From: a virus
Taxonomy: Duplodnaviria; Caudoviricetes
DNA length: 35,216 bases
Strand: one strand, 5' to 3'
IMG/VR virus record: IMGVR_UViG_3300025738_000168
Span: 1 to 35,216 of that record
Shown piece by piece: positions 1 to 35,216 of the stretch (positions are counted from its first letter, which is position 1; every line of letters starts with the position of its first letter). A program made the position numbers and the translations under genes. The notes under the pieces were generated by a model. The model did no database searches. It worked only from the letters and a program-made list of their open reading frames with translations, and was not told the DNA's origin.

Positions 1-3000
1 TTATTTGATTAAAGCAGGATCTACTGTGGTGGCTTTAGGGCCTCCTACTAAAGCCGTTTCGGGTGTAATAGGGTTTGTAAAATCATCTCCTGATTCGTTA
101 TTCAATACAAAATCACAACACGGTAATCCTGTTTCGTTTAAACCAACAGTATCTTTTTGAATCATTGTTAATGAAGTTGGCATTCTAGTTTCCCATTCAT
201 CTTCAACTGACCCCTCTACAACTTGCATTTCCTCAGCAATAGAAATGTATAGGTCATCTTCATTATCCAACACTAAGTCGCCACCATTCCAGATGTCACC
301 AGTTTCCATATAATACACTACGGCATCTTCAAAACCTGGACGAACAGGTATTACTGCTCTTGACATACCACTTTGTAAAAAGGCTTGAAAAATAGGGTCT
401 GCAGCATCATTTTGTTGAATTAAATCTTTCCAGTTACCTTGTTTTGCCCAATAGTAAGGGTAAAATAGGTATGCCATAATTTCCCAGTCAAAGGCTTGTT
501 CAAAGAATTTTACATGGGCTGCGTGGTTTTCAAACTCAACCGTTTGCTTAACATAAGGCACATCAGAACCTCCAATACCATAGTTGTCTTTTCCTAGTGG
601 GTTACCATAAGGTTTTGCCAACATTTCAATACAAATCCTTTTTAATTCTCTTTTTTCAATTGCTCTATTAAACAACGGATTAAAACGGATTTTTTCTTCT
701 TCTTGATTCTCACCAATACCTGCTGCTAACTTTGCATCTCTATACTCTTGTAAACGCTCATTATAGGCATCCACAATAGCTTTATACGTTTCATTTTGCC
801 ATTGTTGGAAATACTCTTCAGTTCTAACACACTTGATTACAATATTTACATTTACAATCCAATTCCATTCAAAATAAGCAGAAACAGGAACCTCTTCATT
901 GTAATGAGATCCAATAGGAATAAAAATGTCTTGATTAATATTCATGTTTATTCCTCCTACGGTAACATAAGTCCATCCACTTCCAGACACTCCAGATGTT
1001 TTAGCTTCAATAGCCTTGTACCCTTTTGTTACTTTAACGGTATCAGAAGGCGCTTTATTAGTTTTATTACTTCCATCACCTGCTTGTTGTGATTTAGTAA
1101 ATGAAGTTCCTGCATAGCTATATAATTCAGGAACAGCTCCTACTTCAGCACCATAAGCTGCTGCGAAGTTTTGATATTCTGATTCTGTAATATCTGCTGC
1201 ACTACTCAGGCCTAACGATTCTGGCGTTTTTGGCTCTTCAATTAAAAATATATTTTCTGATTCCTCCTCTTTATTTATAATTGCTTCTTTAAAAAATTTA
1301 GAAGGCTCAGGAACCATAAATTCATACATCAAACGTTTTCCATAATTCACCAGCTGATTCTTGTAAATAACATCAATCCAACGGTACACTCCAGAAACAT
1401 GCTGTTCTCCTTCTCTATTATCAAAACCGTGTTTGTTATTTTCTTCAAACTCTTTTAAAATACGTGACGTACGCTTTTTAGTTGTTTTTTGTACAATTCG
1501 CTCTAGTGTGCGTTCTGTAACTTCTTGTGCATAGGTTTGTGCATTACTATTTGATTGTGAACTTGATGATGAATTTGCAAAATCTGCATACCCTTCTGCA
1601 TGATATGTCCCTGATGGAAATTTACCATTAACTCCTGCAGACGCCCCAAATGCTGTAGATTTATCTTCATTTAATACTGATGAAACTTCAGTTTGCATTT
1701 CATTACGCTCAGTTGTTGACGAATCTGTTAAATTTTCAACTTCTTTTTCTGAGGTAGTTTCGGTTGTACGTTCAATACTTGTTAAATTCCTAGTTGATCG
1801 CTCTTTATATTCCCTAGCTAAAATGTTTTCAATATGTGATACTTGTCCCGGGACATAGCAACATACCTCTTGTTCTACTTTTCTAAAATCTGCTATACCA
1901 ACTTTATTAACACCGTACAGTTCAATATCAACCGGTAGTACTGGGTTATTCGTTATAAGTTCCCCACAACCTTTAGTATAAACTTTTGATATATAAACCC
2001 TTACACTATAAGTAACTTTATCTCCATTACTTAATGTAAATTCTCCAGATAAATCATAATAAGGTTCAGTTATAAAGAATGTTTTGTCATTAAACAATCT
2101 TAATTTTACTCCTCCACCTATTTGGCTAAACCCTAATGATTCTGTACTAGTAATTGTTGTCGCGCCATGTACCAATGTATGATTTTGACTTACTATATAA
2201 ACACCTGTGTTACCTAAATTTATAGTAAATAAAACATTAGTGCTTGGAGGCACAATGAATCCTTTTCTTTTAACAATTGTATTTACCAAAAAACAATATG
2301 GACTTAATTCTTGACCTATCTCTGGTCTAACGGTAACTCCATTTATTATTAAAGACTTATTTGTAGTTTTTATATTTGAAAAAAGCTCCCTATTTGCTTC
2401 TTTTAATTTAGCATCAACTAGTATTGAAGCTTCCTCTACTGTTTCTCTTTCTTCTAATTTTAATTCCTTAATAACATTTCTAGTATCATCACTAATATTT
2501 TTTAGGTATGCTTCAGTGAGTGGTTTTTCAAACGTAAAATCAAACTTAGGCAAATCTACCTCTAAAGGAATTTCTCTCGGCTCTCTTTTTTCTATTACAG
2601 CCAAATCATCCTCTTTTTTTTGGAGTTCTTCTTGATTTCTCTCAGCCACTTCAATCAAAGGTGCTATTACTTTTTCGTAAGAAGCCTTAGCTGACTCATA
2701 AGACTTTTTATATGCTTTTTGATAACTATAATCTACATCTTTAAGTTCAGTAGCAGCTACTTTTAATGCTGACACTTCTTCACCAATAAAATGTTCATTG
2801 GCAGCTCTTACTAATTCTTTATTAGTAGCTTCATAATTTCCTTTGCTAGAAACTGAATTATCTTCCTCTGTAGTAAAAGATTTATCAATAACTACTTTAG
2901 CATTTGCAAGACGTACTAAAAATTCTTCTTCCGTTCCTTCATGAACTGTAGCGTCATAAGTAGTGTATTTTGCAATAAAATTATTAGCTATGATTAATTG

Positions 3001-3423
3001 TATACATGCTTGCCTTACATAAGATGATTTTCTTGTCAATACTTGGTAGTACAAATTATCCCATAACTCATTAACTTTAGCATCTACTAAAGGAGTTAAT
3101 GATCCCATTTCCACAACAACTTCAGCTTTTGTAAAGTTGCTTCGGTTATTCATTAACCAAGAAGAAAAATTATATAAGTCTTTGTCTACTTCCTTTGTTT
3201 TTAAATACGTTTTTAAAGGATTAGTAAAATCATTCACTGCATCTCTTACAAAAGTTCTAGCCTGATTTATATCGGTTCCTTCTCCTATTTCTTCTAAAAA
3301 AACACTTTGCGAAGGGTTAGGATGAAAGATAAATCCTAAGTCTTTACGTTGTTCATTAATGAGCTGTGGTGTTCTCACTGTTACAAATCTAAACAGATCT
3401 GTTTTAATTGGTTTTGATGCCAT
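1..3423 (-). CDS. Large hypothetical protein (1140 aa), candidate toxin cargo, possibly a beta-pore-forming toxin
   Basis: Complete ORF with stop at 1-3 and no signal peptide. Coiled-coil N-half; C-half has GIADFRKVEQEVCCY..SHIENIL and FEQAFDWE..YLFYPYYW blocks plus a Ser/Thr-rich amphipathic segment (STAFGASAGVNGKFPSGTYHAEGYADF). Preceded by the locus promoter box. Function is inference. Confidence 0.55.
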   Translation of the reverse strand: MASKPIKTDLFRFVTVRTPQLINEQRKDLGFIFHPNPSQSVFLEEIGEGTDINQARTFVRDAVNDFTNPLKTYLKTKEVDKDLYNFSSWLMNNRSNFTKAEVVVEMGSLTPLVDAKVNELWDNLYYQVLTRKSSYVRQACIQLIIANNFIAKYTTYDATVHEGTEEEFLVRLANAKVVIDKSFTTEEDNSVSSKGNYEATNKELVRAANEHFIGEEVSALKVAATELKDVDYSYQKAYKKSYESAKASYEKVIAPLIEVAERNQEELQKKEDDLAVIEKREPREIPLEVDLPKFDFTFEKPLTEAYLKNISDDTRNVIKELKLEERETVEEASILVDAKLKEANRELFSNIKTTNKSLIINGVTVRPEIGQELSPYCFLVNTIVKRKGFIVPPSTNVLFTINLGNTGVYIVSQNHTLVHGATTITSTESLGFSQIGGGVKLRLFNDKTFFITEPYYDLSGEFTLSNGDKVTYSVRVYISKVYTKGCGELITNNPVLPVDIELYGVNKVGIADFRKVEQEVCCYVPGQVSHIENILAREYKERSTRNLTSIERTTETTSEKEVENLTDSSTTERNEMQTEVSSVLNEDKSTAFGASAGVNGKFPSGTYHAEGYADFANSSSSSQSNSNAQTYAQEVTERTLERIVQKTTKKRTSRILKEFEENNKHGFDNREGEQHVSGVYRWIDVIYKNQLVNYGKRLMYEFMVPEPSKFFKEAIINKEEESENIFLIEEPKTPESLGLSSAADITESEYQNFAAAYGAEVGAVPELYSYAGTSFTKSQQAGDGSNKTNKAPSDTVKVTKGYKAIEAKTSGVSGSGWTYVTVGGINMNINQDIFIPIGSHYNEEVPVSAYFEWNWIVNVNIVIKCVRTEEYFQQWQNETYKAIVDAYNERLQEYRDAKLAAGIGENQEEEKIRFNPLFNRAIEKRELKRICIEMLAKPYGNPLGKDNYGIGGSDVPYVKQTVEFENHAAHVKFFEQAFDWEIMAYLFYPYYWAKQGNWKDLIQQNDAADPIFQAFLQSGMSRAVIPVRPGFEDAVVYYMETGDIWNGGDLVLDNEDDLYISIAEEMQVVEGSVEDEWETRMPTSLTMIQKDTVGLNETGLPCCDFVLNNESGDDFTNPITPETALVGGPKATTVDPALIK

Positions 3424-3591
3424 AGTTATTGGTATAAATTTGTTATTTAAATTATTGTTTTTTTTTATTCTTTTTTAAATTAAGATTTCTTGATATCTTA
3501 ATTATTCCTAACCTATGCCCCTTGCTAGAAATTTTAGTAATAAAATGTGTAAAATATAAACGTCAAAAAAAAGTTCTATTTTTTGAGTTTA

Positions 3592-3656
3592 CAAAAGTAT
3601 ATAGGTAAGTCTCCCTGATGAAAAAAAACAGGGCTTTGATTCAGTAGTTTCAGTAG
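3592..3656 (-). promoter_or_regulatory. Locus box CTACTGAAACTACTGA (3641-3656) plus -7 element TACTTTTG (3592-3599)
   Basis: Seen in sequence; 41 nt spacer; TAnnTTTG is the established Bacteroidota sigma-70 -7 consensus. Confidence 0.8.
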
Positions 3657-3912: not shown

Positions 3913-4311
3913 TTACCTCTTAAATACTATACAGCCATTTTTAATATCTGCTGACGAAATAAACTCGGTGTTTTCTTGATCGAACTGTATAGTAAAACTC
4001 GTCTGATAATCTATTATTTCAATAAAAGAACCGTCACCTAAAATTTCAATTCCTAATTGCTCTTTTAACGCTGTAGCATCATCATCACAGATCATTTCGT
4101 TATTAGACAGGTATAAATCCATCTTTTGTATATCACCCAGCTTTTGAGCAGTAAATGTAACCTTGTATATTTCTGACTCAAATAATTTTTTTGAGGCTTT
4201 TCCGTTTATTATTGAATAGGAATTTGATAAGTCTATTGTATTTTTTACTCTTTTTAAACGAAAAATTCGTTTTGACGCATAAGTCTCTTCATGAGATTGT
4301 TTTTTCTTCAT
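3913..4311 (-). CDS. Hypothetical protein, paralog of 27124..27516
   Basis: Shares IDLS.SY, FESEIYKVTF, L.LS.NE.IC, LKE.LG.EI.GDGSF and FD.EN..FI with the 130 aa ORF. Confidence 0.8.
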   Translation of the reverse strand: MKKKQSHEETYASKRIFRLKRVKNTIDLSNSYSIINGKASKKLFESEIYKVTFTAQKLGDIQKMDLYLSNNEMICDDDATALKEQLGIEILGDGSFIEIIDYQTSFTIQFDQENTEFISSADIKNGCIVFKR

Positions 4312-4494: not shown

Positions 4495-5103
4495 TTAAAA
4501 TAGCTTAACTCCAAATTGAATTTGATGTGAAGGATTAGGAGTGTTTTTTAAATTAACCCCATACCCTACAAACCACTTGTTTTTATGTACATATTGTAAT
4601 CCTACATTTATAGCACTTAATTCCGTACTATTTCCTCCAACACCTGAATATATAAACATTCCGCTTTTAGGTACTTTCACGTTTTCAATAGTAGTTTCAG
4701 TAACCAAAGGGTATTTAAAATCATATTTTAACTTGTTTTCATATACCTTTCCATCCGTTAATACTGTGCTATAAATAGTAATATCTTTACTTTGCAAGGT
4801 ATCTTTATACTCATTTAACTGTAGTACTTCTTCTCCGGGTTTAAGAGCATCTAAACGAAATTGATTTTCAGTAATCCTTTTTAAAATATCCTCACTTGTT
4901 TTGACATATACTATTTTAGGTTTTACATTTTTATAAGCTTTAAATAATTTATGAATACTATCCATTTTACGGATCATTACTGTATCCTTCTCTACTCTAG
5001 TAGTAACCGTATTAGTTGATGTTCTTCTTAATTTATTGGCAAAGAGCAAGAGTACCAGTATTAAAATTATAATATGTTCAATTTTTATATCTCTAATTTT
5101 CAT
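4495..5103 (-). CDS. Putative spanin-like / outer-membrane lysis accessory protein
   Basis: N-terminal TM helix; C-terminal amphipathic beta strands ending QIQFGVKLF; directly after the endolysin. Confidence 0.5.
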   Translation of the reverse strand: MKIRDIKIEHIIILILVLLLFANKLRRTSTNTVTTRVEKDTVMIRKMDSIHKLFKAYKNVKPKIVYVKTSEDILKRITENQFRLDALKPGEEVLQLNEYKDTLQSKDITIYSTVLTDGKVYENKLKYDFKYPLVTETTIENVKVPKSGMFIYSGVGGNSTELSAINVGLQYVHKNKWFVGYGVNLKNTPNPSHQIQFGVKLF

Positions 5104-5117
5104 CTCATTTATATTCG

Positions 5118-5540
5118 TTATACAATAACTCTATAGCCTAGCAAACGATCTTTTGGGTAACTTGAAATTTTTACTTGATTATTTTGATTTCCACCAAGCA
5201 CAAAAATTTCATTACCAATAGCATTTATAAAAAATCCTACATGGCCTTTCCAACTTTTTTTGCTTCCTCTCCAAAAAATAACAACATCACCCATTTGCGG
5301 GCGATTGGTTTCCATACCAATTTTCAACCAACTTCTAGCATTTAGTTTTCCTGTATATGGTGCATCACTAGTTTTTAGTACCCAATTCACAAAGGCAGAG
5401 CACCAAGCTGTTTCATCTTTCAACTTGCTGCCATTAAAGCCTATTTCATCAAAATATTTTAAAATTTCCAGATTATCATTTTGACCTACAATCTCTTTTA
5501 CACCATATTCCTTAAAGGCGATTTCTACATGTTTTTTCAT
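5118..5540 (-). CDS. TIGR02594-family (CHAP/NlpC-like) endolysin
   Basis: DETAWCSAFVNW, ARSW, GDVVIFWRG, GHVGF and LGGNQ motifs; adjacent to the holin. Confidence 0.88.
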   Translation of the reverse strand: MKKHVEIAFKEYGVKEIVGQNDNLEILKYFDEIGFNGSKLKDETAWCSAFVNWVLKTSDAPYTGKLNARSWLKIGMETNRPQMGDVVIFWRGSKKSWKGHVGFFINAIGNEIFVLGGNQNNQVKISSYPKDRLLGYRVIV

Positions 5541-5670
5541 AATTCATTGTCTTTTTACATCCCAAAAGCAAACATTTATTTAAACAAATATTTGCTTATC
5601 AAGTATGATTGCTTCAATTTATTGTAATTTCTAACTACAAGTTTCATCAGCATTTATGTGCTTCTATTTA

Positions 5671-6132
5671 CTAAGCCGTTTTGGTGTCTATAGTACTTAA
5701 GAATTTTTTAAATAATTGTATCAATGCATTTCGTATCGCTTTCAACACCTTTGTTAGTGCATCAAAATTTTCTACTTCCTGCTTTGTTTTTATGGCTATA
5801 GCATTACTGAAAATTGAAATTCCGTCACTTACAATAAGTAAATCCATAACTATAGTTACAAACCATTTAAAGTTGTAATTAAGTCCTTTACTCATTAAGG
5901 CTAAAGCCATTGGAATTAGGAGAACCGCAAGTTTTGAAACAAAACCAAGCGCCAATATTTTAAAACTGAATGCTTTTTTTAAAACAATTGTTTTTACTAC
6001 TCCTAAAATGGTATCAATAACCATTAAGTAGAAGAGTACTTTTACAATTTCAATATCCATTTCTAAATACATAAAAACCCCATACAACAGTAATTTTAAT
6101 TCGTTTGAATACACTACTAGTTTATCTTTCAT
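5671..6132 (-). CDS. Phage holin family protein
   Basis: About three TM segments, IDTILGV and SIFSN motifs typical of toxin-secretion/phage holins, basic C-terminus, upstream of the endolysin. Confidence 0.75.
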   Translation of the reverse strand: MKDKLVVYSNELKLLLYGVFMYLEMDIEIVKVLFYLMVIDTILGVVKTIVLKKAFSFKILALGFVSKLAVLLIPMALALMSKGLNYNFKWFVTIVMDLLIVSDGISIFSNAIAIKTKQEVENFDALTKVLKAIRNALIQLFKKFLSTIDTKTA

Positions 6133-6153
6133 TTGGGTTGTTATTAGTTATTA

Positions 6154-6618
6154 TTAGTCGTCTACTATAGATTTTTGAGCATGATTAAAGTCTATTACTC
6201 CTAATAGGTTTGTAAATCGTTGCCCAAAAACAGAAAGGGTTTCATCTCTTTCATTTTCTCCAAGGTTATCACTAATAGTTTCTTGTACTACTCCAAATTT
6301 ATGTTTAGAATTTGATGCAATAAAATTGTCATTTAACAATTCTCCAGCAACTATATTTCCGCTTATATCAATACTTAAACTTAACCGTCTTAGGTAGTTA
6401 ATAAATCCTTTCCATTTTACAATTCGGTAACAGAAACTAATAGGATAAATTCCTAAAGCTGCTATGGAAGCAAATAAAAAGAGTATCCATTCTGCATAAT
6501 GCTTTTTTGAGATCAATAGTGTTAACAACAACACAATTGCCATTGGTAGCATGACCAATGTGGTTATTAAAAGCCATAGCAATGCCATGACTGTGAAAAT
6601 AAATTTTACAGTTTTCAT
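6154..6618 (-). CDS. Phage-type membrane protein of the lysis region
   Basis: Two N-terminal TM helices, then SIDISGN..ETISDNLG..IDFNHAQKSI, a pattern I recall from phage hypothetical proteins. Confidence 0.55.
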   Translation of the reverse strand: MKTVKFIFTVMALLWLLITTLVMLPMAIVLLLTLLISKKHYAEWILFLFASIAALGIYPISFCYRIVKWKGFINYLRRLSLSIDISGNIVAGELLNDNFIASNSKHKFGVVQETISDNLGENERDETLSVFGQRFTNLLGVIDFNHAQKSIVDD

Positions 6619-6832: not shown

Positions 6833-7777
6833 TTATTTTAGATTTCCTTTTAACTTTTCAACGAAATACGTTCTGACTGACTTGTCCTGCATGTCATTAA
6901 GCTCTAAGGCGTCAACATATCCCTGATAAGCTGCTCCTTCAGCAGCTGTTTTTCCTGAAGCTTCTAATTGCGCTTTAGTAGGGACATGTGTGTTTAACCA
7001 CGTAAATTCCGTATCATTTGCTATTGAACTATATAAATCAGTTGTTCCGTATGTTTTGTATTCGGTAAAATCAGTTGAATATTTCCTAGATAAGCTGCGT
7101 AAGGCATCATAAGCTTTCTTCTTTCCAGTACTTATTTCATCATCTATAAAAAACCCTAAAATAACTAGTATACTTCCCATTGTGGTAGAAGCTCTAGCCA
7201 TGACATTACTTCTTCGACTATGCCCTACTTCTAAAATTTGTCTATTGGTTTTGTAGATTTTAAATTTCGTTTTAGTATTTTCAACTGCAACATCTAAAGT
7301 TCCATCTTCAAAATAGTATTGCCATTTTTTCTCTTGAGAATACATTCCTCTTTCAGTAGGGTTAAAAGCCATATCTGAACTATGGTATTCATAGGTCTCT
7401 GTTATCTTAATTACAGCTTTTTTCACACTATCTTTTTCATAAAAATAAGTAGTTTCTTTTATAAGCCCGTCATTAGTTAAACTCACCTCTGCGTCCAAAC
7501 GTATTCCAGAAGCTAGTTCTGTTTTATAGTTAATCGCTGTAAGATCTTTACTTTTAACACTATCAACACAAAGTGAACGCAACAAATGTTTTTTAGCATT
7601 TTTCACATACCCATTTACTATTGCTGTTAAAGCGGTTGTGTCAGTATTAACATTAGGTGTAACAATTAATTTATCTTTCTCTATTTTTAATCTATCTAGT
7701 TTAATATCAGCTGTCTTTAAAAGAATTATTAACTCTTCTAAAATGATATCTCCTTTATCATATATTATATTTTCCAT
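6833..7777 (-). CDS. Hypothetical protein, possible tail-fibre-associated or assembly protein
   Basis: 314 aa ORF 10 bp downstream of the fibre-like gene; function inferred from position only. Confidence 0.5.
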   Translation of the reverse strand: MENIIYDKGDIILEELIILLKTADIKLDRLKIEKDKLIVTPNVNTDTTALTAIVNGYVKNAKKHLLRSLCVDSVKSKDLTAINYKTELASGIRLDAEVSLTNDGLIKETTYFYEKDSVKKAVIKITETYEYHSSDMAFNPTERGMYSQEKKWQYYFEDGTLDVAVENTKTKFKIYKTNRQILEVGHSRRSNVMARASTTMGSILVILGFFIDDEISTGKKKAYDALRSLSRKYSTDFTEYKTYGTTDLYSSIANDTEFTWLNTHVPTKAQLEASGKTAAEGAAYQGYVDALELNDMQDKSVRTYFVEKLKGNLK

Positions 7778-7787
7778 ATTGCTATTT

Positions 7788-9347
7788 TTAGATATTATCT
7801 GCTATTTTAAAAATCAAAACCTCTGCTTTATGTAACTCAGCAGTACGGAATAGAGAGTCATTAAATATCAGTTTGAAATTATGAGACCCAGGAGTAACAT
7901 TTGTAATACCAAAAAGTGTTCTTTTATGTCGTTGCTCCAATTTATCATCAACAAACTCTTCATTTATTACATCTAACTCCAAAAGATCGTTCAAAAACAT
8001 TTTAGCTACAAAATTTGAAAATGTAGAATCTGACGAAGCACTTATAGTACACATAAAAGCATACTGACCACCTCTTGCGAATGTCAAATCTTGATCTAAA
8101 TAATTTGTAGGTATTGACACCAACCCATTAAAATCAAAGTCTGAAGTACTATACTCTTCTCTTTTGAATGTTAGAAAATTTAAAACATCTAGGGTTTTAA
8201 CAAAGGTTTTATTTCCTGTATGATCCGTTCCATAAAAAGAATCGCTACTTGGAGTTTCAACATCTCCAACTAACTCTAAATTTCCTACAGTATCCGTAAT
8301 AGATTTTGCTTGCGCAGTTTTATCACGTTTTGCATTATTTAAGTCTTGAGCGGTTCCAGTATATCCTCCTTTATCAAGTTTGTCGTTTTGTAATGCAGTA
8401 ATATTTGTTTGTGACGCTAATATTTCATTAAATAAGTCCTGAGCAGTACCCGTATACCCACCTGCTGCCAATTTCTCAGCTAGTGATGTAGCAACATTAG
8501 CCGCAAAATTAACATCATCACCCAATGCATTGGAAAGTTCGTTTAATGTATCTAAGACTGCTGGTGAATTATCAATTAATGCCGATAATTTTGATGCTAC
8601 AAAATCTTCAATAGCTTTTACACTTGCAATTTTATCTGTAGCTCCAGAATTTGTAATCATGTCCTGAACCATATCCGCAACACCTTCCAAGTCTGACAAC
8701 TGTAAATTTTGCCATGACGTTCTTCCAGTTGCATCAGTACATTGTAAATACTTCCCAGCAGCTTCTATCCCGCTAGTCTGAAATAAAATACCATCATCAA
8801 TTGTTATTCTTGATTTTTGAGCAGGCCCTACAATATCTATTCGTTTATTTGCATTTACTTGAAAAAGCTCAGTTTGAAACTCTGCTGTTGTATTATCAAC
8901 GGTAAAATTAGTTCCATCTGCAATTACAAATTCTTTTAAAGCCTTAAAAATCAAACTTCCATTTTGATTTGCACCGTCTAGAATTCTTCTTTCTTTGATT
9001 GTTCCGTCTGAATTATAAATTGTCTTTAAACTTAATATTAAGTTATATAAACTTTGTGAAGTACCTGCATACCCTCCTGTTTCGGTTTTATTGTCTAATA
9101 AATCTTGTAAGTCTGTAATAAAACTTACTGGCATTTCATTAGGCAAATGGTATTTTGGTATTATAACACTTTGTCCTCCTACAAATAAAAAGGTGATATT
9201 TCCTTCGTCATCTGTAGTAACACTATCAATAATTTCTCCATCATTTTTATGAACTAAACTATCGAATACATCGATAAACTCTGTTTGTGTAGGCTTATCT
9301 CCTGTTTGAAAATAGGATTTTAAAGCCTGTATTGTTCTTATTGCCAT
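7788..9347 (-). CDS. Tail fibre-like protein
   Basis: N-terminal LKSYFQTGDKPTQTEF motif, phage-fibre motif SPAVLDTLNELSNALGDDVNFA, three GGY(A/T)GT(S/A)Q(S/D)L repeats, beta-rich C-terminal domain. Confidence 0.75.
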   Translation of the reverse strand: MAIRTIQALKSYFQTGDKPTQTEFIDVFDSLVHKNDGEIIDSVTTDDEGNITFLFVGGQSVIIPKYHLPNEMPVSFITDLQDLLDNKTETGGYAGTSQSLYNLILSLKTIYNSDGTIKERRILDGANQNGSLIFKALKEFVIADGTNFTVDNTTAEFQTELFQVNANKRIDIVGPAQKSRITIDDGILFQTSGIEAAGKYLQCTDATGRTSWQNLQLSDLEGVADMVQDMITNSGATDKIASVKAIEDFVASKLSALIDNSPAVLDTLNELSNALGDDVNFAANVATSLAEKLAAGGYTGTAQDLFNEILASQTNITALQNDKLDKGGYTGTAQDLNNAKRDKTAQAKSITDTVGNLELVGDVETPSSDSFYGTDHTGNKTFVKTLDVLNFLTFKREEYSTSDFDFNGLVSIPTNYLDQDLTFARGGQYAFMCTISASSDSTFSNFVAKMFLNDLLELDVINEEFVDDKLEQRHKRTLFGITNVTPGSHNFKLIFNDSLFRTAELHKAEVLIFKIADNI

Positions 9348-9367
9348 ATTGTATATGTTTTTTATAA

Positions 9368-9395
9368 GCCTTCTGAAATAAAATATTCAGAAGGC
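9368..9395 (-). terminator. Hairpin between the two fibre genes (weak terminator or mRNA stabiliser)
   Basis: GCCTTCTGAA-N8-TTCAGAAGGC; only a short U tail on the minus strand. Confidence 0.5.
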
Positions 9396-9431
9396 GATAA
9401 ATAATTTTTGCTTTTTTATAAAGCTTATTAA

Positions 9432-19225: not shown

Positions 19226-19226
19226 T

Positions 19227-22715: not shown

Positions 22716-22723
22716 TCAAACTA

Positions 22724-22789
22724 CTTACTGAAACTACTGAAAACGCCCGTCATAATTTTATTTTTTTCTATTCTTCTTAGCTACTTTTA
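22724..22789 (+). promoter_or_regulatory. Locus box CTTACTGAAACTACTGA (22724-22740) plus -7 element TACTTTTA (22782-22789)
   Basis: 41 nt spacer; right arm of the divergent pair, upstream of the hub/spike operon. Confidence 0.82.
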
Positions 22790-22965: not shown

Positions 22966-23163
22966 ATGAGCAAGAAAAAAGATATAGGAGAAACACCACC
23001 TATGCCAGATGCAGATGCTTTAAAAGCAACCAAAAAACAAGCAGCTAATGGAAATATTATAGTAGGAAAACTTAATGTTATCTATGGTGATACAGTAGCT
23101 AAAGGCGAGGATGTTGCTGCAGTAGTTAAAAAAGAACAATCCGACTCAGGCCACTCATCATAA
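22966..23163 (+). CDS. Small hypothetical protein (65 aa)
   Basis: First ORF after the promoter, A-rich translation start region, 17 bp before the next gene. Confidence 0.55.
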   Translation: MSKKKDIGETPPMPDADALKATKKQAANGNIIVGKLNVIYGDTVAKGEDVAAVVKKEQSDSGHSS

Positions 23164-25527: not shown

Positions 25528-25528
25528 C

Positions 25529-26605: not shown

Positions 26606-26618
26606 AAAACATAAAATT

Positions 26619-26840
26619 ATGGGATTAAGCGCAAGTACATTAAAAACTCTAATAGCAGCCGCATTTGATGAAAATCAAGAAACAGAAAGCAGTGACGCCG
26701 CTATTGATAGGTTATCAACAGCATTAGCTGATGCAATTGTAACTCACATTCAGGATAATTTAGAAGTTACAGTACAAGGAACAGGAAACATGGGAGCACC
26801 TGTTATTTCTAAAAGCAAACCACTTGGTTCAATTTCTTAA
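26619..26840 (+). CDS. Small spike-associated protein (possible tip protein)
   Basis: 73 aa, LSTALADAIVTHI helix then a Gly-rich strand; immediately after the spike gene. Confidence 0.55.
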   Translation: MGLSASTLKTLIAAAFDENQETESSDAAIDRLSTALADAIVTHIQDNLEVTVQGTGNMGAPVISKSKPLGSIS

Positions 26841-27123: not shown

Positions 27124-27516
27124 ATGAAAGACCCAAAACTAACTAAAGAACCTACTGACTCATTAAAGCGATTTTTAACTATTAAGAAAAATGGAAACGC
27201 TATTGATTTAAGCGAATCATACAAAATGTACACTAATCAACTTACTAAGCTAGTATTTGAATCAGAAATTTATAAAGTAACTTTTAAAACCCTTAAAAAA
27301 AGCTACAACTTATTTTTAAGCGCCAATGAATTAATTTGTAACGATTGTATTGGCTACCTTAAAGAAAACCTGGGAGTAGAAATTTTTGGAGACGGATCCT
27401 TTTTTGAGGTAATCAGTTACACGCATGATTTTAAAATGATATTCGATACTGAAAATAGTACTTTTATTGATACCGATACCGTTCAAAATGGTGTAGTGTA
27501 CTTTTATAAAGAATAA
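27124..27516 (+). CDS. Hypothetical protein, paralog of 3913..4311
   Basis: Collinear similarity over the whole length with the 132 aa ORF. Confidence 0.8.
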   Translation: MKDPKLTKEPTDSLKRFLTIKKNGNAIDLSESYKMYTNQLTKLVFESEIYKVTFKTLKKSYNLFLSANELICNDCIGYLKENLGVEIFGDGSFFEVISYTHDFKMIFDTENSTFIDTDTVQNGVVYFYKE

Positions 27517-27777: not shown

Positions 27778-28383
27778 TTATTTTTCTATTTTTATTTTAT
27801 TAAGCTCTTTTAAACGCTCATAACTTATTCTGTATGGCTTAAATGGTACGCCAATTGAAGCTAAGGCCTTTTCTGCTTTTATATGTAAATTATTCATATA
27901 CTCCGTATCTTCTATATCCCATAAAAAATTTCTGTTTTTTATCTCAAATTCTGAAAACTCTTGAGCTCGTTGATACAGTAATCCTAAAAATTCTATTTTG
28001 GGTAATACAATTTCTGAATCATATCCTTCTCTAGCATAATAATCATCTTCAGGCTCTAATTCATTTCTGTTTACGTATTTTAAAACTAATGTTTCTTTAT
28101 CTGGAGAATTTATTTTATATGAAATATTTTCTTGACCACACGTTGTTATTTGTAATGGTTTACTCTCTACAATTTCTTGCATTTCAGGTAAAAACATATT
28201 GGTAAACACATCCCCAATAAATAATTGATTAATACAAAACGTTTGCTCTTCATATTTTATAATAATATTTCCTGCTTCATGTTTTTTAAAAAAAGCTAAG
28301 TCACTATCACCTAAAGAACCAGCTTCCAGTAAACTAACAAATCTATCTCCATTATCGATATCTATATTTATTTCTATTTCCAT
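27778..28383 (-). CDS. Putative cytoplasmic immunity protein
   Basis: Acidic 201 aa protein with no signal peptide, starting 2 bp after the stop of the 866 aa toxin-like gene. Confidence 0.6.
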   Translation of the reverse strand: MEIEINIDIDNGDRFVSLLEAGSLGDSDLAFFKKHEAGNIIIKYEEQTFCINQLFIGDVFTNMFLPEMQEIVESKPLQITTCGQENISYKINSPDKETLVLKYVNRNELEPEDDYYAREGYDSEIVLPKIEFLGLLYQRAQEFSEFEIKNRNFLWDIEDTEYMNNLHIKAEKALASIGVPFKPYRISYERLKELNKIKIEK

Positions 28384-28385: not shown

Positions 28386-30986
28386 TTATCTTTTAATATC
28401 TACTATTGCTTTTAACTCATTTTTACTAACTGAAATAATACCTTCCCCTTTATTCGGGTAAAACATTCCTATTACTTCTTTTTTTCCTTTATATTTTGAC
28501 CCTATATACACTTCCATCCCACTACTTAATTTGACCAACTCCTCTTTCCTAGGGCGTGGGTATTGTGGCCCTTTATTTTTCTTAAGTATTGCCAATGCCT
28601 CATCTATATAATTAACTACATCATTTTGTGTAGTACCTGGAGGAAACATATCATTCGTTCCAGAAAGATATTTACTATTGTTAACATCAAAATGTTTCAT
28701 GATATGCTTATCAATAGTATGTTCTATCTCTATATCATGAAAGTATCTATTCTCTTGATTAAAATACTTTGGTTTTAAACCTGTGTTTACACTTTGTTTT
28801 GTAAAATTATCAATATTTTTGGTAATTCTCTCAAAATTTTTGTGGTTTCCTGAAACTGCTACCCATAAACTTTCTAATTTTTCTGGTTTTCCATTGGCTA
28901 CTCGTAACACTTTATCTAAACCAACAACATCATAACTAGCTTTTTCAACTAATTCTACAATTTTTTCATCCGTAGCCCCTGTTTGTTTTTCTATTGCTCT
29001 ATAGGTTCTAATAAATTTTTCCTCACTTACAAAATAGGAAGCATCATCTTGTTTTTGATAGTTGCTTAATAGTTTTTTCTGCTGTTCTGTTACATCAATA
29101 TCATCAACTTTATTTAGGATTTTATTATTTCTAGCTCCAGTTTCAACTCCCTTTTTATTTTTCTTGGAAGCTAACACTTCTGCCTTTTTTTTGCTTTTCT
29201 TTATTGCCTTTAACTCTTTTTTAGCAGCAGCATTCCCACTTCTTACTTTAGGATGAACCTCATCAAAAAACTTTTTATTTTTATTATAAATTTCTTCAAA
29301 AATCTTCTGTTTGGTTAGCTCATCAACACCGCCTAAGTTTTTTATCGTTTCTTCTAATACTTTAGGGTCAGACTTTCTTGCTGCTCCTATAATATTTTTT
29401 ATAACATCTTTTATATTTGCTACTTTAGCTAAGGCCCCTATATCTATTAATACCCCTAAGACAGATACTACTACCCAAACTATAGATGGCTCGTCGTTAG
29501 ATAGTTGCACATCATATACAGCTAATTTGTTTTTATATATATCTACTTCTTCATAGCTTAAATAAGCTCCAACTCCTAAATTTACTGCAGCCCCTAATAT
29601 TGCAAGCGTACCTGTACCGTAAGTAAGTATACCAACTGCTATTGCCATAGCCCCAATTACTAAACCATGTAATACTTTATTAGCAATCTCAGCTTCCATT
29701 TTATCTTTAATAATTAAATCAAAAACAGACCCTTCTTGTATAGATAAATTAGTTAATACTTCAGCAATAATATTTTTAAACTCAAAAACAGTATCATCTT
29801 TTAAAAGGTATTCTTTAGATTTTATAATATTTTCTCTGTGTCTGTTAATTTCATTTTGAAGAAACTTTTTAAGTTCTTGAGCTGTTTCTATTTGAGATAA
29901 CTTTTCAAAATTGAATCCTCTTTCTTTTGTTAATGGTATGTTTAACTTTAAAATTTCTTTTTTACCTGCTTGCTTATTTTCACTTAACTCTACATATTCT
30001 TTTGCTCTTTCCTTTTTTTCATGCTCAGCTAGATTATTCATATAATCTCTAGAATTTTTGACTTTTTGATAAGACTCTTTAGCGCTGGTACTTTTTATTT
30101 TTTTAAGGATATTCTTTACTGCCTTATCATTTTCAAGCGTCTTTTCTTCTTCATTTAAATAGCTTTCATAAGTCGTTAGACGGTTTAGCACATGACAATG
30201 CGCTTCATTTCGTATAACATTTATAAACTGCTTTGTAAGTTGTTCGTATTCTCCAATGTTTTTAAACCCATAATCTTTAACTAGTTTAGCTATATTATTA
30301 GATGAATTTGATAATATAACTAACCCAGCCCCAGCCAATTGAAGACTTGTACTTAATTTTAAATCGGTTCGATGCTGTAATAACTTTTCAAAAAGACATT
30401 CAGTTCCTTTTAATTTTTCAAAAGAATTTGTTTCTTCATATTGGGCAAAAGTCACTTCAGACTCTTGTTTTTTAATAGCTTTTAAAACTTCCTCTTTAGT
30501 TCTGTAAATACTAACTCCATCATAAACAAAAGAAAACTCTTTACCATCTATAAGTACGTATACTACATCTCCTTGTTTGGCGTATTCAAACTTGTTATAA
30601 CTAAACTTGGCATCTTTGGGTATATCGCTTAAGTTATACTCCCCCGTATGATAGTCTGCTGTTAAATACCCTATTTTAGTAATTTTATCTAAATCTTTTA
30701 CACTAGACTTATAAAAATTAGCACTGTTATAAGTAAAAGAATGTATAAATAAATCGTATTGCAATACATTTATATTCGTTGCTTGTACAGGCTTACCCGT
30801 TGGTATTAAATAACACCGTTTACTGTTTTCTTTTGCTAAAGCATATTTTTGAGCACCAATTTTATTTAAACCATCATAATTTGCTTTATGCTGTTGGTTC
30901 ATTTTATTAATCTCCACTATTAAATCTTGCAGTTTATAGAGTTCACTGGAGTCTTCTAAATATAGAGTGTGGGTTTTACGAATCAT
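28386..30986 (-). CDS. Putative polymorphic toxin: helical body, hydrophobic hairpin, C-terminal nuclease-like (EndoU/RNase-type) domain
   Basis: TM-like segments VLHGLVIGAMAIAVGILTYGTG.. and PSIVWVVVSVLGVLID; basic C-terminal domain H..KH..MFPPG..IDEAL..IGMFYP; followed by a small acidic ORF. Nuclease class is inference. Confidence 0.6.
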   Translation of the reverse strand: MIRKTHTLYLEDSSELYKLQDLIVEINKMNQQHKANYDGLNKIGAQKYALAKENSKRCYLIPTGKPVQATNINVLQYDLFIHSFTYNSANFYKSSVKDLDKITKIGYLTADYHTGEYNLSDIPKDAKFSYNKFEYAKQGDVVYVLIDGKEFSFVYDGVSIYRTKEEVLKAIKKQESEVTFAQYEETNSFEKLKGTECLFEKLLQHRTDLKLSTSLQLAGAGLVILSNSSNNIAKLVKDYGFKNIGEYEQLTKQFINVIRNEAHCHVLNRLTTYESYLNEEEKTLENDKAVKNILKKIKSTSAKESYQKVKNSRDYMNNLAEHEKKERAKEYVELSENKQAGKKEILKLNIPLTKERGFNFEKLSQIETAQELKKFLQNEINRHRENIIKSKEYLLKDDTVFEFKNIIAEVLTNLSIQEGSVFDLIIKDKMEAEIANKVLHGLVIGAMAIAVGILTYGTGTLAILGAAVNLGVGAYLSYEEVDIYKNKLAVYDVQLSNDEPSIVWVVVSVLGVLIDIGALAKVANIKDVIKNIIGAARKSDPKVLEETIKNLGGVDELTKQKIFEEIYNKNKKFFDEVHPKVRSGNAAAKKELKAIKKSKKKAEVLASKKNKKGVETGARNNKILNKVDDIDVTEQQKKLLSNYQKQDDASYFVSEEKFIRTYRAIEKQTGATDEKIVELVEKASYDVVGLDKVLRVANGKPEKLESLWVAVSGNHKNFERITKNIDNFTKQSVNTGLKPKYFNQENRYFHDIEIEHTIDKHIMKHFDVNNSKYLSGTNDMFPPGTTQNDVVNYIDEALAILKKNKGPQYPRPRKEELVKLSSGMEVYIGSKYKGKKEVIGMFYPNKGEGIISVSKNELKAIVDIKR

Positions 30987-31013: not shown

Positions 31014-31358
31014 TTACAGTACTTCTACTGTTACTGGTTTTGGCTGTATGTGGTCAGAAAAAGAAGTTGTAATATTTAAACGTAAATCGTCCTCTTGCTC
31101 TATTTTGGCATCTCCTCCTAAATAGCAATTTTTAAATAGTACTTCCAAAGCTTTAAACTCGTCCATTTTTGAAGCTTGTAATACTGCTGAACGAATAGCG
31201 ATAGAAGGTTTTTTAAAGTAAGCATATAACACCGTGTCATCATCGTCAGTTATGCTTAATTTCACTACTCTTTTATGTTTGTACTTCCATTGGTTTAGTT
31301 GCCCTTGGGTAATATTCCCATCTAAAACCGCTGCAATATTTGTTGTTGTATCTTTCAT
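31014..31358 (-). CDS. Tail assembly chaperone (gpG-like)
   Basis: QLNQWKYKH..AYFKKPS..LFKNCYLGGD motif; first gene after the tube. Confidence 0.75.
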   Translation of the reverse strand: MKDTTTNIAAVLDGNITQGQLNQWKYKHKRVVKLSITDDDDTVLYAYFKKPSIAIRSAVLQASKMDEFKALEVLFKNCYLGGDAKIEQEDDLRLNITTSFSDHIQPKPVTVEVL

Positions 31359-31958: not shown

Positions 31959-32384
31959 TTAGTTCCACTCAATGTGAGAACAGATAAAGTCAAAAGCAAC
32001 ATCAATTTTAGTATCACCTTGGCTAATTCCTCTACTGTTAGAGTTGAATTCACAGTTTCTTACTGTATGAGTAATAACGTTATCGCTATCATCTAAATAA
32101 CTTACAATAATACTAAAAGGTGCTACGTCCTGTAAGCGTTGTCCGCTTGGTAAAGCAGCTAAAATCTTTTCTACTTCATAATTATACATGGTCATAGAAG
32201 CTTTTGCCTCATATTTCCCTCTACCTCTGTGTACTGGCATATCTCCTGCACCATAGTGGTTTTCTTTCGCTACTGAATCGTCGTAGTTTACTGCAGTAAT
32301 ACCAGTAATGATGTTACCTAAAATACTTACTTCTACTGATGACCAACTGTGTTGTTGTCCGTTTATTAATGGTAATGTGTTCAT
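31959..32384 (-). CDS. Phage tail tube protein
   Basis: INGQQHSWSSV, YGAGDMPVHRGRGKY and HTVRNCEF..QGD motifs; 141 aa, directly after the sheath. Confidence 0.85.
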   Translation of the reverse strand: MNTLPLINGQQHSWSSVEVSILGNIITGITAVNYDDSVAKENHYGAGDMPVHRGRGKYEAKASMTMYNYEVEKILAALPSGQRLQDVAPFSIIVSYLDDSDNVITHTVRNCEFNSNSRGISQGDTKIDVAFDFICSHIEWN

Positions 32385-32420
32385 ATTGTTTTTGTGTTTC
32401 TTTTGTATTAATTAATAAGA

Positions 32421-33743
32421 TTAGGCTTTGTCAATTCCGAAAGGATTTTTGAATCCTAAATCAACCATAATTCTACGTGCTGTACCTACAGGAATAATTT
32501 CTGCTTTAATACGTAATTCAGACGTTGCTAAAATGTTTTGCTTAGGATCAACATACACATCAAATTGTGATACTTCCCCGTTAGATATCATTCCTTCTAA
32601 AGCTACTCTACATAATGTTTCAAAATCTTTAGAAACTACTAATGGTAATTCTCCAGTGTTACTAATTAAAACAGGAGAAGCAATTTTTGTAACCAATGCA
32701 GTACGTAACAAACGAGTTGCTTTGTTAATAGTACGGTTGTTCTCTACATAAGCAAAGTCAGACGTTCCTGCTGTTGCAGTATGACTATCGTTAAAATATA
32801 CTCCTGGGAAACCAACGTGTTTTTTTGCAAAAACGTAACGCATGTCGTTCAATGTTGATAAATCTCCTGTAGTTGCTAATTTTTTAGCTCCTACAAAACC
32901 TGCTTTTGCAAATCCTTCACCTGCTAAGTTGAATTTTTCAACCCAAGCAATATTTTCAGAAACTTTAGCACCAGAAACAGCACCTAAAGCTACTCCTACT
33001 GCTGCAGTGTTAACGTAATTAGCCTCCGCTCCTTTTTCAGGATCCATAGCAACTACTACTGATACGTTTTCTGCTCCAGAATCTTTTAAGTTTGGCATTG
33101 TCCCAATAGCATCTGCTTTAAACCCTTTTCCTTCTAATAAAATTTCAAAAGGCATGTAAAGCGCATACGCTTCTCCTGCTTGAGTTTGTGCAACTGAAAT
33201 TGCTGATGCTGTTCCAGTAAAAGCTAAATCAGCTGTTACATCTGAATAGATTACTGCCATTTGACGGATAGCTCCTTCTGCTTCAACTTGCATGTCTTTT
33301 GCTAAAGCAACAACATCTTCATATGCTCCCAGAGCACTGTCATCAGCTTTTTTAGATACAGCCATAATGAATAAATCACCTGAAGGATTCATTCTAAAAT
33401 ACTGTTGAATTTGGTAGTAAGCTGATTGTCCAGCAGCATCATAAGCAGCTGTAATTCCTAATGCTTCAGCATCGTCTAAAGAAGCTAATCGATAAAGTGT
33501 TTCCGTATCAAATAACTGCTTAGAGTATTGATCCGCTGTAGCATTTAAATCTGCTGCATCTGTTGGTTCAACAGGATGCAAGGTAGTTGTGTAACTATCT
33601 TTACCATCTACTGTAATTTTTCTTTTTACTTCAAAAACGTCTTTCCCGTCAAAAAGTAAACCAGAGACCATGTCCTGGCTAGGATTTCTTCTTCCTAATC
33701 CGCCTGATAGTTTGTTAATTACTACGTCGTTTAATGTACCCAT
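32421..33743 (-). CDS. Contractile tail sheath protein (DUF2586-like)
   Basis: LNDVVINKLSGGLGR, GVYFND, DFAYVENNRTINKA.R and VDPKQNILATS..IIPVGTARRI motifs. Confidence 0.85.
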   Translation of the reverse strand: MGTLNDVVINKLSGGLGRRNPSQDMVSGLLFDGKDVFEVKRKITVDGKDSYTTTLHPVEPTDAADLNATADQYSKQLFDTETLYRLASLDDAEALGITAAYDAAGQSAYYQIQQYFRMNPSGDLFIMAVSKKADDSALGAYEDVVALAKDMQVEAEGAIRQMAVIYSDVTADLAFTGTASAISVAQTQAGEAYALYMPFEILLEGKGFKADAIGTMPNLKDSGAENVSVVVAMDPEKGAEANYVNTAAVGVALGAVSGAKVSENIAWVEKFNLAGEGFAKAGFVGAKKLATTGDLSTLNDMRYVFAKKHVGFPGVYFNDSHTATAGTSDFAYVENNRTINKATRLLRTALVTKIASPVLISNTGELPLVVSKDFETLCRVALEGMISNGEVSQFDVYVDPKQNILATSELRIKAEIIPVGTARRIMVDLGFKNPFGIDKA

Positions 33744-34053: not shown

Positions 34054-34233
34054 TTATGCACTCGCTTGTAATGATATTCCTTCATTTATAATAGTATAAA
34101 TGGTACGCTCCGTTAAAAACAAGCTTTCTGATAATTCAGCTACTACTACCTTCATTTGTTTGGCTTGATTTTCATTCATATAGTTTAATACAAAATCTCT
34201 TCTTTTGTCTAATAATATTCTGCTTCTTTTCAT
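34054..34233 (-). CDS. Small HTH DNA-binding protein absent from the ORF track (59 aa), Mor/C-like activator candidate
   Basis: Hand translation MKRSRILLDKRRDFVLNYMNENQAKQMKVVVAELSESLFLTERTIYTIINEGISLQASA; ELSESLFLTERTIYTII is a typical HTH recognition segment. Confidence 0.78.
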   Translation of the reverse strand: MKRSRILLDKRRDFVLNYMNENQAKQMKVVVAELSESLFLTERTIYTIINEGISLQASA

Positions 34234-34265: not shown

Positions 34266-35087
34266 TTAGTTGTTTAGTTTTATCGTTTTTACTTCATCAG
34301 GATTACCACTTACAGTATTGTCTGTAGCTTCAATAGGGTCATTACCTATAACATTTCCTTCCGCATCTGTTATTAAATCTAAAATATCATCATCATCTAA
34401 ATCTGGATTTGTGATTATAGTTGTTTCAGGACTTGGAGCTATATCCTCCTTTGCAGCATTATTTGATGTTACACTATTCAGGTATAAATTTCCAGCAACT
34501 TTAGTAGTGTTGTCAATTTTAATATAGTTACTTTCTCTCCCATTAGTTTCCTCATCAGTTAAAGGAGCATACCCCATTTTTATTAAATCAGTATCAGAAA
34601 CGCCATTTTTTAATAGGGTATACCTCTTTTTCAGAGTATTTTCTATTAAGGTAGTTTTGTAGGTAATTTCCCAAATGAAGTAATCGTTTTTATCCCAATA
34701 TTCATGTTCATTTGTACATTGCTTTTCATGAACTTTAAAAGTTGCATTAGTGTCAATAAATGCTAAATCAGTTTTTCCAGAAATTATTGCTTTGTCTATC
34801 GCATGTGCAAATTCAAAAGCTTTCTCATAACTTTCATTTGGTGAAATAACTCCTTTAGGTAATACTATATATAAACAAAAATTAACATCAGCTTTATATG
34901 TTTTTTCAGATGAGGTTTCCCAATCTATAGCATCATACTTAAATAATATCACTGGATTAACAATTTCTGTTTTAAAAATATTATCCGTGTAAAGATGGAT
35001 AAGGGTATTGTCTTCTAAATTGGAATTATAAGAAAGTTCTTCAGTTATGGCTTTTCTTTTCTCTGTATAAAAATCTTTTAAAATCAT
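34266..35087 (-). CDS. Tail terminator/completion protein (Mu gp37-like) with acidic C-terminal extension
   Basis: MILKDFY..I.LY..PVILF...IDW..FCLYIV pattern; upstream of the sheath; Asp/Thr-rich tail. Confidence 0.6.
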   Translation of the reverse strand: MILKDFYTEKRKAITEELSYNSNLEDNTLIHLYTDNIFKTEIVNPVILFKYDAIDWETSSEKTYKADVNFCLYIVLPKGVISPNESYEKAFEFAHAIDKAIISGKTDLAFIDTNATFKVHEKQCTNEHEYWDKNDYFIWEITYKTTLIENTLKKRYTLLKNGVSDTDLIKMGYAPLTDEETNGRESNYIKIDNTTKVAGNLYLNSVTSNNAAKEDIAPSPETTIITNPDLDDDDILDLITDAEGNVIGNDPIEATDNTVSGNPDEVKTIKLNN

Positions 35088-35106
35088 ATGTTGCTATTAT
35101 TTTTGA

Positions 35107-35172
35107 CAAATATCAAACATATGTTTCAATTACACAACGTCATATTACAGATCTTAACAGTAGTTTCAGTAA
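35107..35172 (-). promoter_or_regulatory. Locus box TTACTGAAACTACTGT (35157-35172) with an imperfectly spaced -7 element
   Basis: Box is clear; candidate -7 elements are GATATTTG (35107-35114, 42 nt spacer) or TATGTTTG (35114-35121, 35 nt spacer). Confidence 0.65.
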
Positions 35173-35216
35173 TATGCACTAATCAACATAGTTTAAATAA
35201 CCGTTCAACTCAATAA

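What the first reader, a model, noticed from the sequence alone, without database searches (positions are those of the whole stretch)
1..35216. Headless Mu/P2-type contractile tail carrying polymorphic toxins: candidate new tailocin/injection system in Flavobacteriaceae
Seen: terminator, sheath, tube, chaperones, initiator, hub, spike, wedge, three fibres and a lysis cassette, all apparently intact, with no head, packaging, integration or replication gene in 35 kb. The genes are split into separately promoted operons and interleaved with toxin/immunity pairs. Known: R-type tailocins are headless tails without protein cargo. eCIS (Afp/PVC/MAC) carry cargo but use Afp-type genes with an AAA+ ATPase. 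T6SSiii needs TssB/C, ClpV and membrane genes. I recognise none of those here. Inference: an independently domesticated Bacteroidota prophage tail that is released by lysis and delivers antibacterial effectors.
Basis: partly seen in the sequence, partly recalled or inferred. Interest (0 to 1): 0.92.

Follow-up and report, generated by a model that had tools for sequence, protein, structure and literature searches.

The report
Headless toxin-carrying phage tail in Flavobacteria
A group of Flavobacteriaceae keep a headless phage tail that has lost its normal ruler (tape-measure) gene and has swappable predicted antibacterial toxins in that gene's place, so it likely works as a new, separately evolved toxin-injecting particle released when the cell bursts.

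Summary
The window encodes a contractile tail related to Mu-like Winoviridae phages, with no head genes. A longer contig identical to the window continues past 35216 into a cI-like repressor and host genes (gldMN). The same headless unit occurs in 51 of 54 genome loci found (Flavobacterium, Tenacibaculum, Dokdonia). Its sheaths form one clade nested among head-bearing prophages, its genes are under purifying selection, and 44 of 47 carrier genomes have no match to the cognate terminase.

(1) There is no canonical tape-measure gene; its slot holds polymorphic toxins (34 C-terminal types among 63) followed by immunity-like genes. (2) A conserved 65-aa protein and the leader of a second toxin resemble the tape-measure C-terminus, recalling the eCIS plug. 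(3) Sixteen of 36 loci carry a PAAR-like spike tip. (4) A 14-bp motif precedes each operon, with a 59-aa HTH gene as the likely activator.

Particle formation, cargo loading and killing are untested; release of the toxins by lysis alone is the main rival. Not found in nine literature searches.

The parts
1..3423 (-). 1140-aa protein of a large unnamed family; likely co-regulated; role unresolved (possible lysis-released toxin)
   Evidence: Motif 219 nt upstream; all 6 homologue loci fetched lie beside an S24 regulator paralogue; 3617 relatives; model pLDDT 78 with no clear whole-fold match
3913..4311 (-). Unknown 132-aa protein, paralogue of 27124-27516
   Evidence: 45% identical to the paralogue
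4495..6618 (-). Lysis cassette: membrane protein, holin, CHAP/TIGR02594 endolysin, spanin-like protein
   Evidence: PF05105, phrog_13191, TIGR02594; TM scan; the spanin label is inferred from position
6833..12056 (-). 314-aa unknown, 519-aa fibre, 874-aa fibre with C-terminal Hint domain
   Evidence: PHROG tail-fibre hits and PF01079; N-termini match pippi8-1 proteins
12100..14649 (-). Baseplate wedge operon: gp25-like, small tail-X-like protein, J-like, I-like
   Evidence: phrog_120; all four match pippi8-1; motif at 14790
14955..16949 (-). 664-aa fibre
   Evidence: N-terminal 30 residues 70% identical to a pippi8-1 structural protein; motif at 17258
17339..19252 (-). Three lipoproteins, predicted periplasmic immunity proteins
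   Evidence: Lipoboxes; variable lipoprotein-like genes follow the homologous toxin in G001-G004; one hits NF046077, which is annotated otherwise
19227..22628 (-). 1133-aa polymorphic effector: leader like the tape-measure C-terminus, conserved body, C-terminal TIGR02594/CHAP amidase-like domain
   Evidence: homologues in 30 of 47 carrier genomes and 0 of 3 prophage controls
22700..22739 (.). Back-to-back pair of the upstream motif in a divergent promoter region
22966..23163 (+). 65-aa conserved protein resembling the tape-measure C-terminus; predicted baseplate plug
   Evidence: Reciprocal best of 78 profiles; 0 of 70 column shuffles reach the score; dN/dS 0.17
23181..23651 (+). Second tail chaperone, paralogue of 31014-31358; likely a fixed G-T-type product
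   Evidence: 32% over 60 aa, E 3e-5; the G-T role is inferred from phage tail assembly
23664..26840 (+). Tube initiator (DUF6046), hub, spike, small spike-tip protein
   Evidence: the hub profile hits AlgoCIS chain 7aef_q (E 2.6e-4) and a VgrG
27124..27516 (+). Unknown 130-aa protein, paralogue of 3913-4311
27778..28383 (-). Predicted immunity protein for the 866-aa toxin
   Evidence: Abuts the toxin; replaced by a different gene in close relative L197; one homologue only
28386..30986 (-). 866-aa polymorphic toxin in the tape-measure slot: family leader, helical body, two TM segments, predicted EndoU-like RNase tip
   Evidence: Leader profile E 0.003, the only non-member hit; 32% to L197 over residues 1-584, then unrelated; Atlas structure TM 0.54-0.64 to LXG/EndoU clusters
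31014..31358 (-). Tail assembly chaperone
   Evidence: phrog_19076; same position before the tape measure in prophages
31959..33743 (-). Tail tube and contractile sheath
34054..34233 (-).
   Evidence: Present in 51 of 51 headless and 0 of 3 prophage loci; weak HTH hits and phrog_836 'late transcriptional activator' in 5 of 14 members
34266..35087 (-). Probable tail terminator
   Evidence: Family profile hits pippi8-1 gp31 and weakly a prophage neck-region gene; motif at 35158

Best explanation
This is a chromosomal, headless contractile tail descended from a Mu-like Winoviridae prophage that likely assembles around polymorphic antibacterial toxins in place of a tape measure, is likely released by its own lysis genes, and would inject those toxins into competing bacteria. 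Shown: no head genes, conservation, one clade, purifying selection, toxin polymorphism and an operon-specific motif. Inferred steps: (1) stress cleaves the S24 repressor encoded just past 35216; (2) the 59-aa HTH protein switches on every operon through the 14-bp motif, as PrtR/PrtN do for pyocins; (3) the 65-aa protein and the leader of the 1133-aa effector dock in the hub as the tape-measure end or the eCIS plug would; (4) the two chaperones that once coated the tape measure thread the adjacent toxin into the growing tube; (5) holin and endolysin release the particles, fibres pick the target, and a wall hydrolase and an RNase-like toxin are delivered; (6) the lipoproteins and the cytoplasmic gene protect kin.
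For: Host genes and no head genes flank the locus on the window's own contig and in five relatives. Cognate terminase in 3 of 47 carrier genomes and portal in 4 of 47, against 3 of 3 prophage controls. 28 headless sheaths form one branch (SH-aLRT 99) among head-bearing phages. Median dN/dS 0.005-0.30 for 14 genes. Motif before gp25 34/34, the 65-aa gene 32/32, sheath 45/51, terminator 45/50, endolysin 32/34, and 0 before eight internal genes. The tape-measure slot holds 63 proteins with 34 C-terminal types; 6 of 20 scanned carry Pfam toxin domains above cut-off. The tape-measure C-terminus profile matches the 65-aa protein and the 1133-aa leader. 16 of 36 loci have DUF4280 tips with VgrG-like spike ends, and 5 of those 16 genomes have no TssC match. 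The AlgoCIS plug is a strand-plus-helix trimer in the same place (PMC8894135).
Against: No particle, expression or killing data. The profile matches are short (HH probability 9-30%) and do not extend to the leader of the tape-measure-slot toxins (2 of 70 shuffles score as high). There is no AAA+ loader and no clear ruler, so tube length control is unexplained. A sister locus nested in the clade keeps a 509-aa tape measure in that slot with no toxin (L089-L091). 14 of 20 slot proteins scanned have no known toxin domain, and the window's RNase call rests on a low-confidence Atlas model. 21 of 47 carriers also have T6SSiii. One lipoprotein hits a family annotated for surface polysaccharide.
Confidence: 0.65

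Rival explanations
1. It is a real tailocin that kills by puncture, and the toxins are co-regulated passengers that are merely released by the same lysis, like cargo bacteriocin genes in Pseudomonas R-tailocin clusters.
For: PMC4684702 passages describe cargo bacteriocin genes inside R-tailocin clusters. No loader ATPase. The slot-toxin leader does not match tape-measure ends. The 1140-aa protein sits apart from the tail beside a regulator paralogue, once followed by an endolysin.
Against: In PMC4684702 the cargo sits mainly near the ends of clusters that keep their tape measure; here the toxin replaces it, directly after the chaperone, in nearly every locus. PAAR-like tips co-vary with the spike end.
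Confidence: 0.2
2. It stays in the cell and fires like a T6SS, growing to cell width without a ruler, or its toxins are really T6SSiii cargo.
For: No tape measure, as in T6SS; DUF4280 tips and VgrG-like spike ends in 16 of 36 loci; TssC in 21 of 47 genomes.
Against: Holin, endolysin and fibres are kept. No membrane-complex or ClpV hit among 31 ORFs. 26 of 47 carriers have no TssC match, including the single-chromosome genome G001.
Confidence: 0.08
3. It is a decaying prophage remnant, or a satellite that uses heads from a helper phage.
For: Related records come from a virus collection. Gene order is rearranged and the locus is patchy: 18 of 301 Flavobacterium and 2 of 301 family genomes.
Against: Strong purifying selection; the only short core ORFs are those cut by a locus end; one clade that follows host genera; no integrase or replication hit in the window; most carriers have no cognate head genes.
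Confidence: 0.05

Closest known systems
Winoviridae myophages (Pippivirus pippi8-1 and lotta8-1, FPSV-S1, Peternella)
   Same: DUF2586 sheath 29-33% identical; tube, initiator, hub, wedge and fibre N-termini homologous. Peternella is myoviral and Mu-like (PMC8776804 passages).
   Different: No terminase, portal, protease, capsid, transposase or tape measure; split into motif-led operons; polymorphic toxin-immunity genes inserted.
R-type tailocins (R-pyocins, Pseudomonas Rp clusters)
   Same: Headless prophage-derived contractile tail with fibres, lysis cassette and a cI-like repressor with a small activator (PMC4684702).
   Different: A separate phage ancestor; no tape measure; toxins in the tape-measure slot and PAAR-like tips, which PMC10598620 says R-tailocins lack.
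eCIS (Afp, PVC, MAC, AlgoCIS, BIS)
   Same: Likely cargo in the tube, a strand-plus-helix plug-like protein, toxin-immunity pairs (PMC8894135, PMC8213781).
   Different: No hit to Phage_T4_gp19 tube, Phage_sheath_1, DUF4255 or AAA; separate hub and spike; phage chaperones kept.
T6SSiii of Bacteroidota
   Same: No tape measure; DUF4280 tips and wall-hydrolase effectors with lipoprotein partners (the effector likeness is recalled).
   Different: No TssB/C, TssD, ClpV or membrane genes in the locus; has fibres and lysis genes.

Membership tests
R-type tailocin | Contractile tail with sheath, tube, baseplate and fibres | tested here: met
R-type tailocin | No head or packaging genes | tested here: met
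R-type tailocin | Lysis cassette and repressor/activator control | tested here: met
   Holin and endolysin, S24 gene, HTH gene and motif; the regulatory roles are predicted
R-type tailocin | Tape-measure protein | tested here: not met
   Best window score against a 39-TMP profile E 0.04; PF10145 in 8 of 47 carriers (2 of 3 controls); sister-locus TMP query 1 of 50. A very diverged ruler role for the slot toxin is not excluded
R-type tailocin | Kills by puncture without injected cargo | not testable with these tools
   Needs particles
Afp/PVC/MAC-type eCIS | Phage_T4_gp19 tube, Phage_sheath_1 sheath, DUF4255 terminator, AAA ATPase (core list from PMC8213781) | tested here: not met
   None hit among 31 ORFs; the sheath profile reaches Afp3/Pvc3 only at E 0.7
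Afp/PVC/MAC-type eCIS | Afp6-type plug | tested here: inconclusive
   The 65-aa protein has the strand-plus-helix pattern of tape-measure ends; no direct comparison with Afp6/Alg6 was made
T6SSiii | TssB/TssC, TssD, ClpV, membrane complex | tested here: not met
   No such hit in the window; TssC matches lie elsewhere in 21 of 47 carriers
Winoviridae | Core genes: Clp protease, capsid, portal, neck, sheath, protein D (PMC8776804) | tested here: not met
   Sheath and hub present; protease, capsid and portal absent
Polymorphic toxin system | Conserved N-terminus, swapped C-terminal toxin, adjacent variable immunity gene | tested here: met
Polymorphic toxin system | Toxicity and its neutralisation by the neighbouring gene | not testable with these tools
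   Needs expression assays

The most novel reading that the evidence does not exclude
A fourth, independent origin of effector-injecting contractile machines. A phage tail split its tape measure: the C-terminal tip became a stand-alone plug and a docking tag on one toxin, and the tape-measure slot became a cassette of interchangeable toxins that the old chaperones load, possibly with the toxin itself setting tube length (slot proteins cluster near 290-340 and 670-790 aa). A sister locus that still has its tape measure, and loci that took up PAAR-like tips, would be living steps from tailocin to eCIS/T6SS-like delivery.
Probability: 0.45. Interest if true: 0.93.

Novelty: new variant of a known kind. 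Interest (0 to 1): 0.82.

Why it matters
How phage tails became toxin-delivery machines is a long-standing question, and the known cases (T6SS, eCIS) are ancient with no visible phage parent. Here the parent phages, a headless form with a tape measure, the toxin-slot form and PAAR-tipped forms all exist and can be compared. It would be a tailocin-type weapon in Bacteroidota with cognate immunity arrays, carried by cultured soil, root and marine strains. It would suggest that the eCIS plug and the tape-measure tip are the same solution, and that cargo can be loaded without an AAA+ ATPase. These loci are also being filed as viruses: 34 viral-collection loci matched the sheath, most of them of this headless type.

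Tried and rejected
Complex prediction of hub with the 65-aa protein gave no verdict. A single-sequence model of the 866-aa toxin tip had pLDDT 44 and was not used; a homologue search with that tip found only itself among 305 candidates of similar length. Fold searches with the 1140-aa model gave no Foldseek match at E<=0.001 and only a generic jelly-roll at residues 766-867 (best Z 8.8, rmsd 3.3, 96 aligned); sequence searches of the PDB found nothing significant. The idea that the slot-toxin leader is a tape-measure N- or C-terminus was not supported. A tape-measure profile matches the helical middle of some long slot toxins (best E 1e-5, best of 254 host controls 0.09) but not the window's (E 0.29), and may reflect composition. 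The sigma-70 scan was at chance level. No tRNA and no Rfam match. No RNA holder listed. Six exact motif hits outside the locus in three genomes precede unrelated host genes or nothing clear, so no wider regulon is claimed. In four homologue loci of the 1140-aa gene a motif match lies in the intergenic region, but none on the sense strand within 500 nt. Four look-ups of earlier findings returned nothing. Rhapidosomes of F. columnare (PMC2107119, listing and abstract start only) were considered as a phenotype; no link was tested.
Full report
OBSERVATION. The window has 32 likely genes. Family scans of 31 of them gave sheath, tube, chaperone, initiator, hub, gp25-like, fibre, holin and CHAP/TIGR02594 hits, and no terminase, portal, integrase or replication hit. 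The nearest isolated phages are Winoviridae (pippi8-1, lotta8-1, FPSV-S1, Peternella; sheath 29-33%). Ten window tail proteins match pippi8-1, while 0 of 11 of its head, packaging, neck, tape-measure and helicase proteins match the window or its extension. PMC8776804 (passages) describes Peternella as myoviral and Mu-like, so the sheath family is contractile.

FLANKS. The record is only the window. A metagenome scan returned L196, from a 43,209-base contig that is 100% identical over 10,948 bases. Past 35216 it carries a divergent S24 repressor-like gene, then an ABC ATPase, DUF983, an FAD oxidoreductase, gldN and gldM. The other side cannot be seen.

RELATIVES. The sheath found 54 genome loci. 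51 share the headless layout (Flavobacterium, Tenacibaculum, Dokdonia and unnamed Flavobacteriaceae); 3 at 28-30% identity are prophages with portal, terminase, protease and capsid. Flanks fetched for five carriers show host genes on both sides and no head genes by my reading of the ORFs (part of that output was cut); G001 has a separate phage-like replication module about 20 kb away. A cognate portal matched 4 of 47 and a terminase 3 of 47, against 3 of 3 controls. In G016 and G019 these lie on other contigs with their own distant sheath; for G007 and G026 I did not map the contigs. Most are draft genomes and each search used one query. The headless type was in 18 of 301 Flavobacterium and 2 of 301 family genomes sampled, centre included; four next-closest sheaths (37-41%) all belong to prophages with heads and tape measures.

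DOMESTICATION. In a quick sheath tree (76 rows, SH-aLRT only, 41 near-redundant headless rows dropped at random), all 28 headless rows form one branch (99) among 41 head-bearing rows, with Tenacibaculum, Dokdonia and most Flavobacterium in their own groups. Sampling started from the window's sheath, which favours such clustering. Median pairwise dN/dS in 39 Flavobacterium-type loci (one pair in five, dS 0.1-1.5) is 0.005 for tube, 0.14 for sheath, 0.08 for hub, 0.17 for the 65-aa gene and 0.30 for spike.

REGULON. The motif TACTGAAACTACTG occurs 8 times against 0.42 expected. In carriers it precedes gp25 (34/34), the 65-aa gene (32/32), sheath (45/51), terminator (45/50) and endolysin (32/34), and none of eight internal genes; 47 head-bearing loci hold 22 matches in 830 kb against 217 in 966 kb. 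A 59-aa HTH gene between terminator and sheath is in 51 of 51 headless and 0 of 3 prophage loci, with weak hits to a late activator family. The layout parallels PrtR/PrtN control of pyocins (PMC4684702 passage); the roles are inferred.

NO TAPE MEASURE. In the prophages the usual order is sheath, tube, chaperone, tape measure, DUF6046; some have moved the tape measure next to the portal. In the headless loci the gene after the chaperone has a conserved leader of about 45 aa and a variable tip: 63 proteins, 34 tip clusters, a few cut by locus ends. Six of 20 scanned carry Tox-MPTase4, CdiA_C, AHH, NS_2 nuclease, EndoU or Ntox15 above cut-off, and one downstream gene is PoNi. The window's 866-aa protein shares the leader, matches close relative L197 over residues 1-584 and then differs, as does the next gene. 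Its tip resembles EndoU/LXG toxin models (TM 0.54-0.64 on a low-confidence Atlas model). The 1133-aa protein shows the same pattern with swapped tips (reading those tips as wall hydrolases is from the window's CHAP hit and recalled motifs). PF10145 matched 8 of 47 carriers, and the sister locus's tape measure 1 of 50. One lineage inside the clade, L089-L091, keeps a 509-aa tape measure and no slot toxin; this may be retention or re-acquisition.

PLUG AND TIPS. A profile of phage tape-measure C-termini has the 65-aa family as its best match of 78 profiles (pairwise E 6e-4, probability about 27%) and the 1133-type leader second; 0 of 70 column shuffles reach either score, but the slot-toxin leader does not match. 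AlgoCIS uses a strand-plus-helix trimer as a plug in the hub and carries cargo in the tube (PMC8894135 passages). After the spike, 16 of 36 loci have a small phage-type gene, as the window does, 16 have DUF4280 with a different spike end, and 4 had no call. TssC matched 21 of 47 carriers; 5 of the 16 DUF4280 carriers had none.

MECHANISM AND RIVALS. I put about 0.9 on a maintained headless machine and 0.65 on the full model with particle-borne toxins. [quoted passage not shown] The 1140-aa gene has the motif here and sits beside a regulator paralogue in 6 of 6 fetched homologue loci, usually away from the tail; its function is open.

NOVELTY. It fails defining features of R-tailocins (tape measure), Afp-type eCIS and T6SSiii, yet likely works like an eCIS built from tailocin-like parts. 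Nine searches found no description, and 'DUF2586' has no hit. I read passages only of PMC12210884, PMC8213781, PMC12090994, PMC11672841, bioRxiv 10.64898/2026.08.24.746745 and those cited above. PMC12210884 excludes clusters lacking the ATPase; PMC11672841 lists pippi-like regions in Tenacibaculum as prophages, which I did not check against this locus. No supplements were read.

Noticed in passing
L091 1654-18689 (also L089, L090): Headless sister locus with the same regulator, activator and motif but an intact 509-aa tape measure; beside relaxase-like mobilisation genes by my reading of the ORFs.
   Followed up: partly
L051, L146, L155, L159, L171, L175, L177, L179: Prophages of this family in which the tape measure has left the tail operon and lies after the portal on the other strand; several have portal ORFs of 800-1000 aa.
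   Followed up: partly
L110-L115: Homologues of the 1140-aa protein lie divergent from a paralogue of the locus's S24 regulator in 6 of 6 cases, once followed by an endolysin. The family has over 3000 relatives and no known whole fold; residues 505-705 form long low-confidence beta hairpins.
   Followed up: partly
window 9432-12056: Tail fibre ending in a Hint (intein-like) domain; relatives end in other domains such as fn3.
   Followed up: no
window 3913-4311 and 27124-27516: Two 45%-identical unknown proteins; L197 has two tandem copies and some relatives have one after the holin.
   Followed up: no
window 31359-31958: 600-base non-coding gap between tube and chaperone, without the motif or an Rfam match.
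   Followed up: partly
L030 13400-19000, L033 14600-19700, L042 13500-17000: Arrays of up to about ten small genes after the slot toxin, likely orphan immunity genes.
   Followed up: no
L185 10001-16000: Viral-collection locus with two tandem sheath genes, a 247-aa gene in the tape-measure slot and no head gene called upstream; possibly another headless lineage.
   Followed up: no
L038 1809-3512: DUF285 repeat proteins among the fibre genes of some Flavobacterium loci.
   Followed up: no
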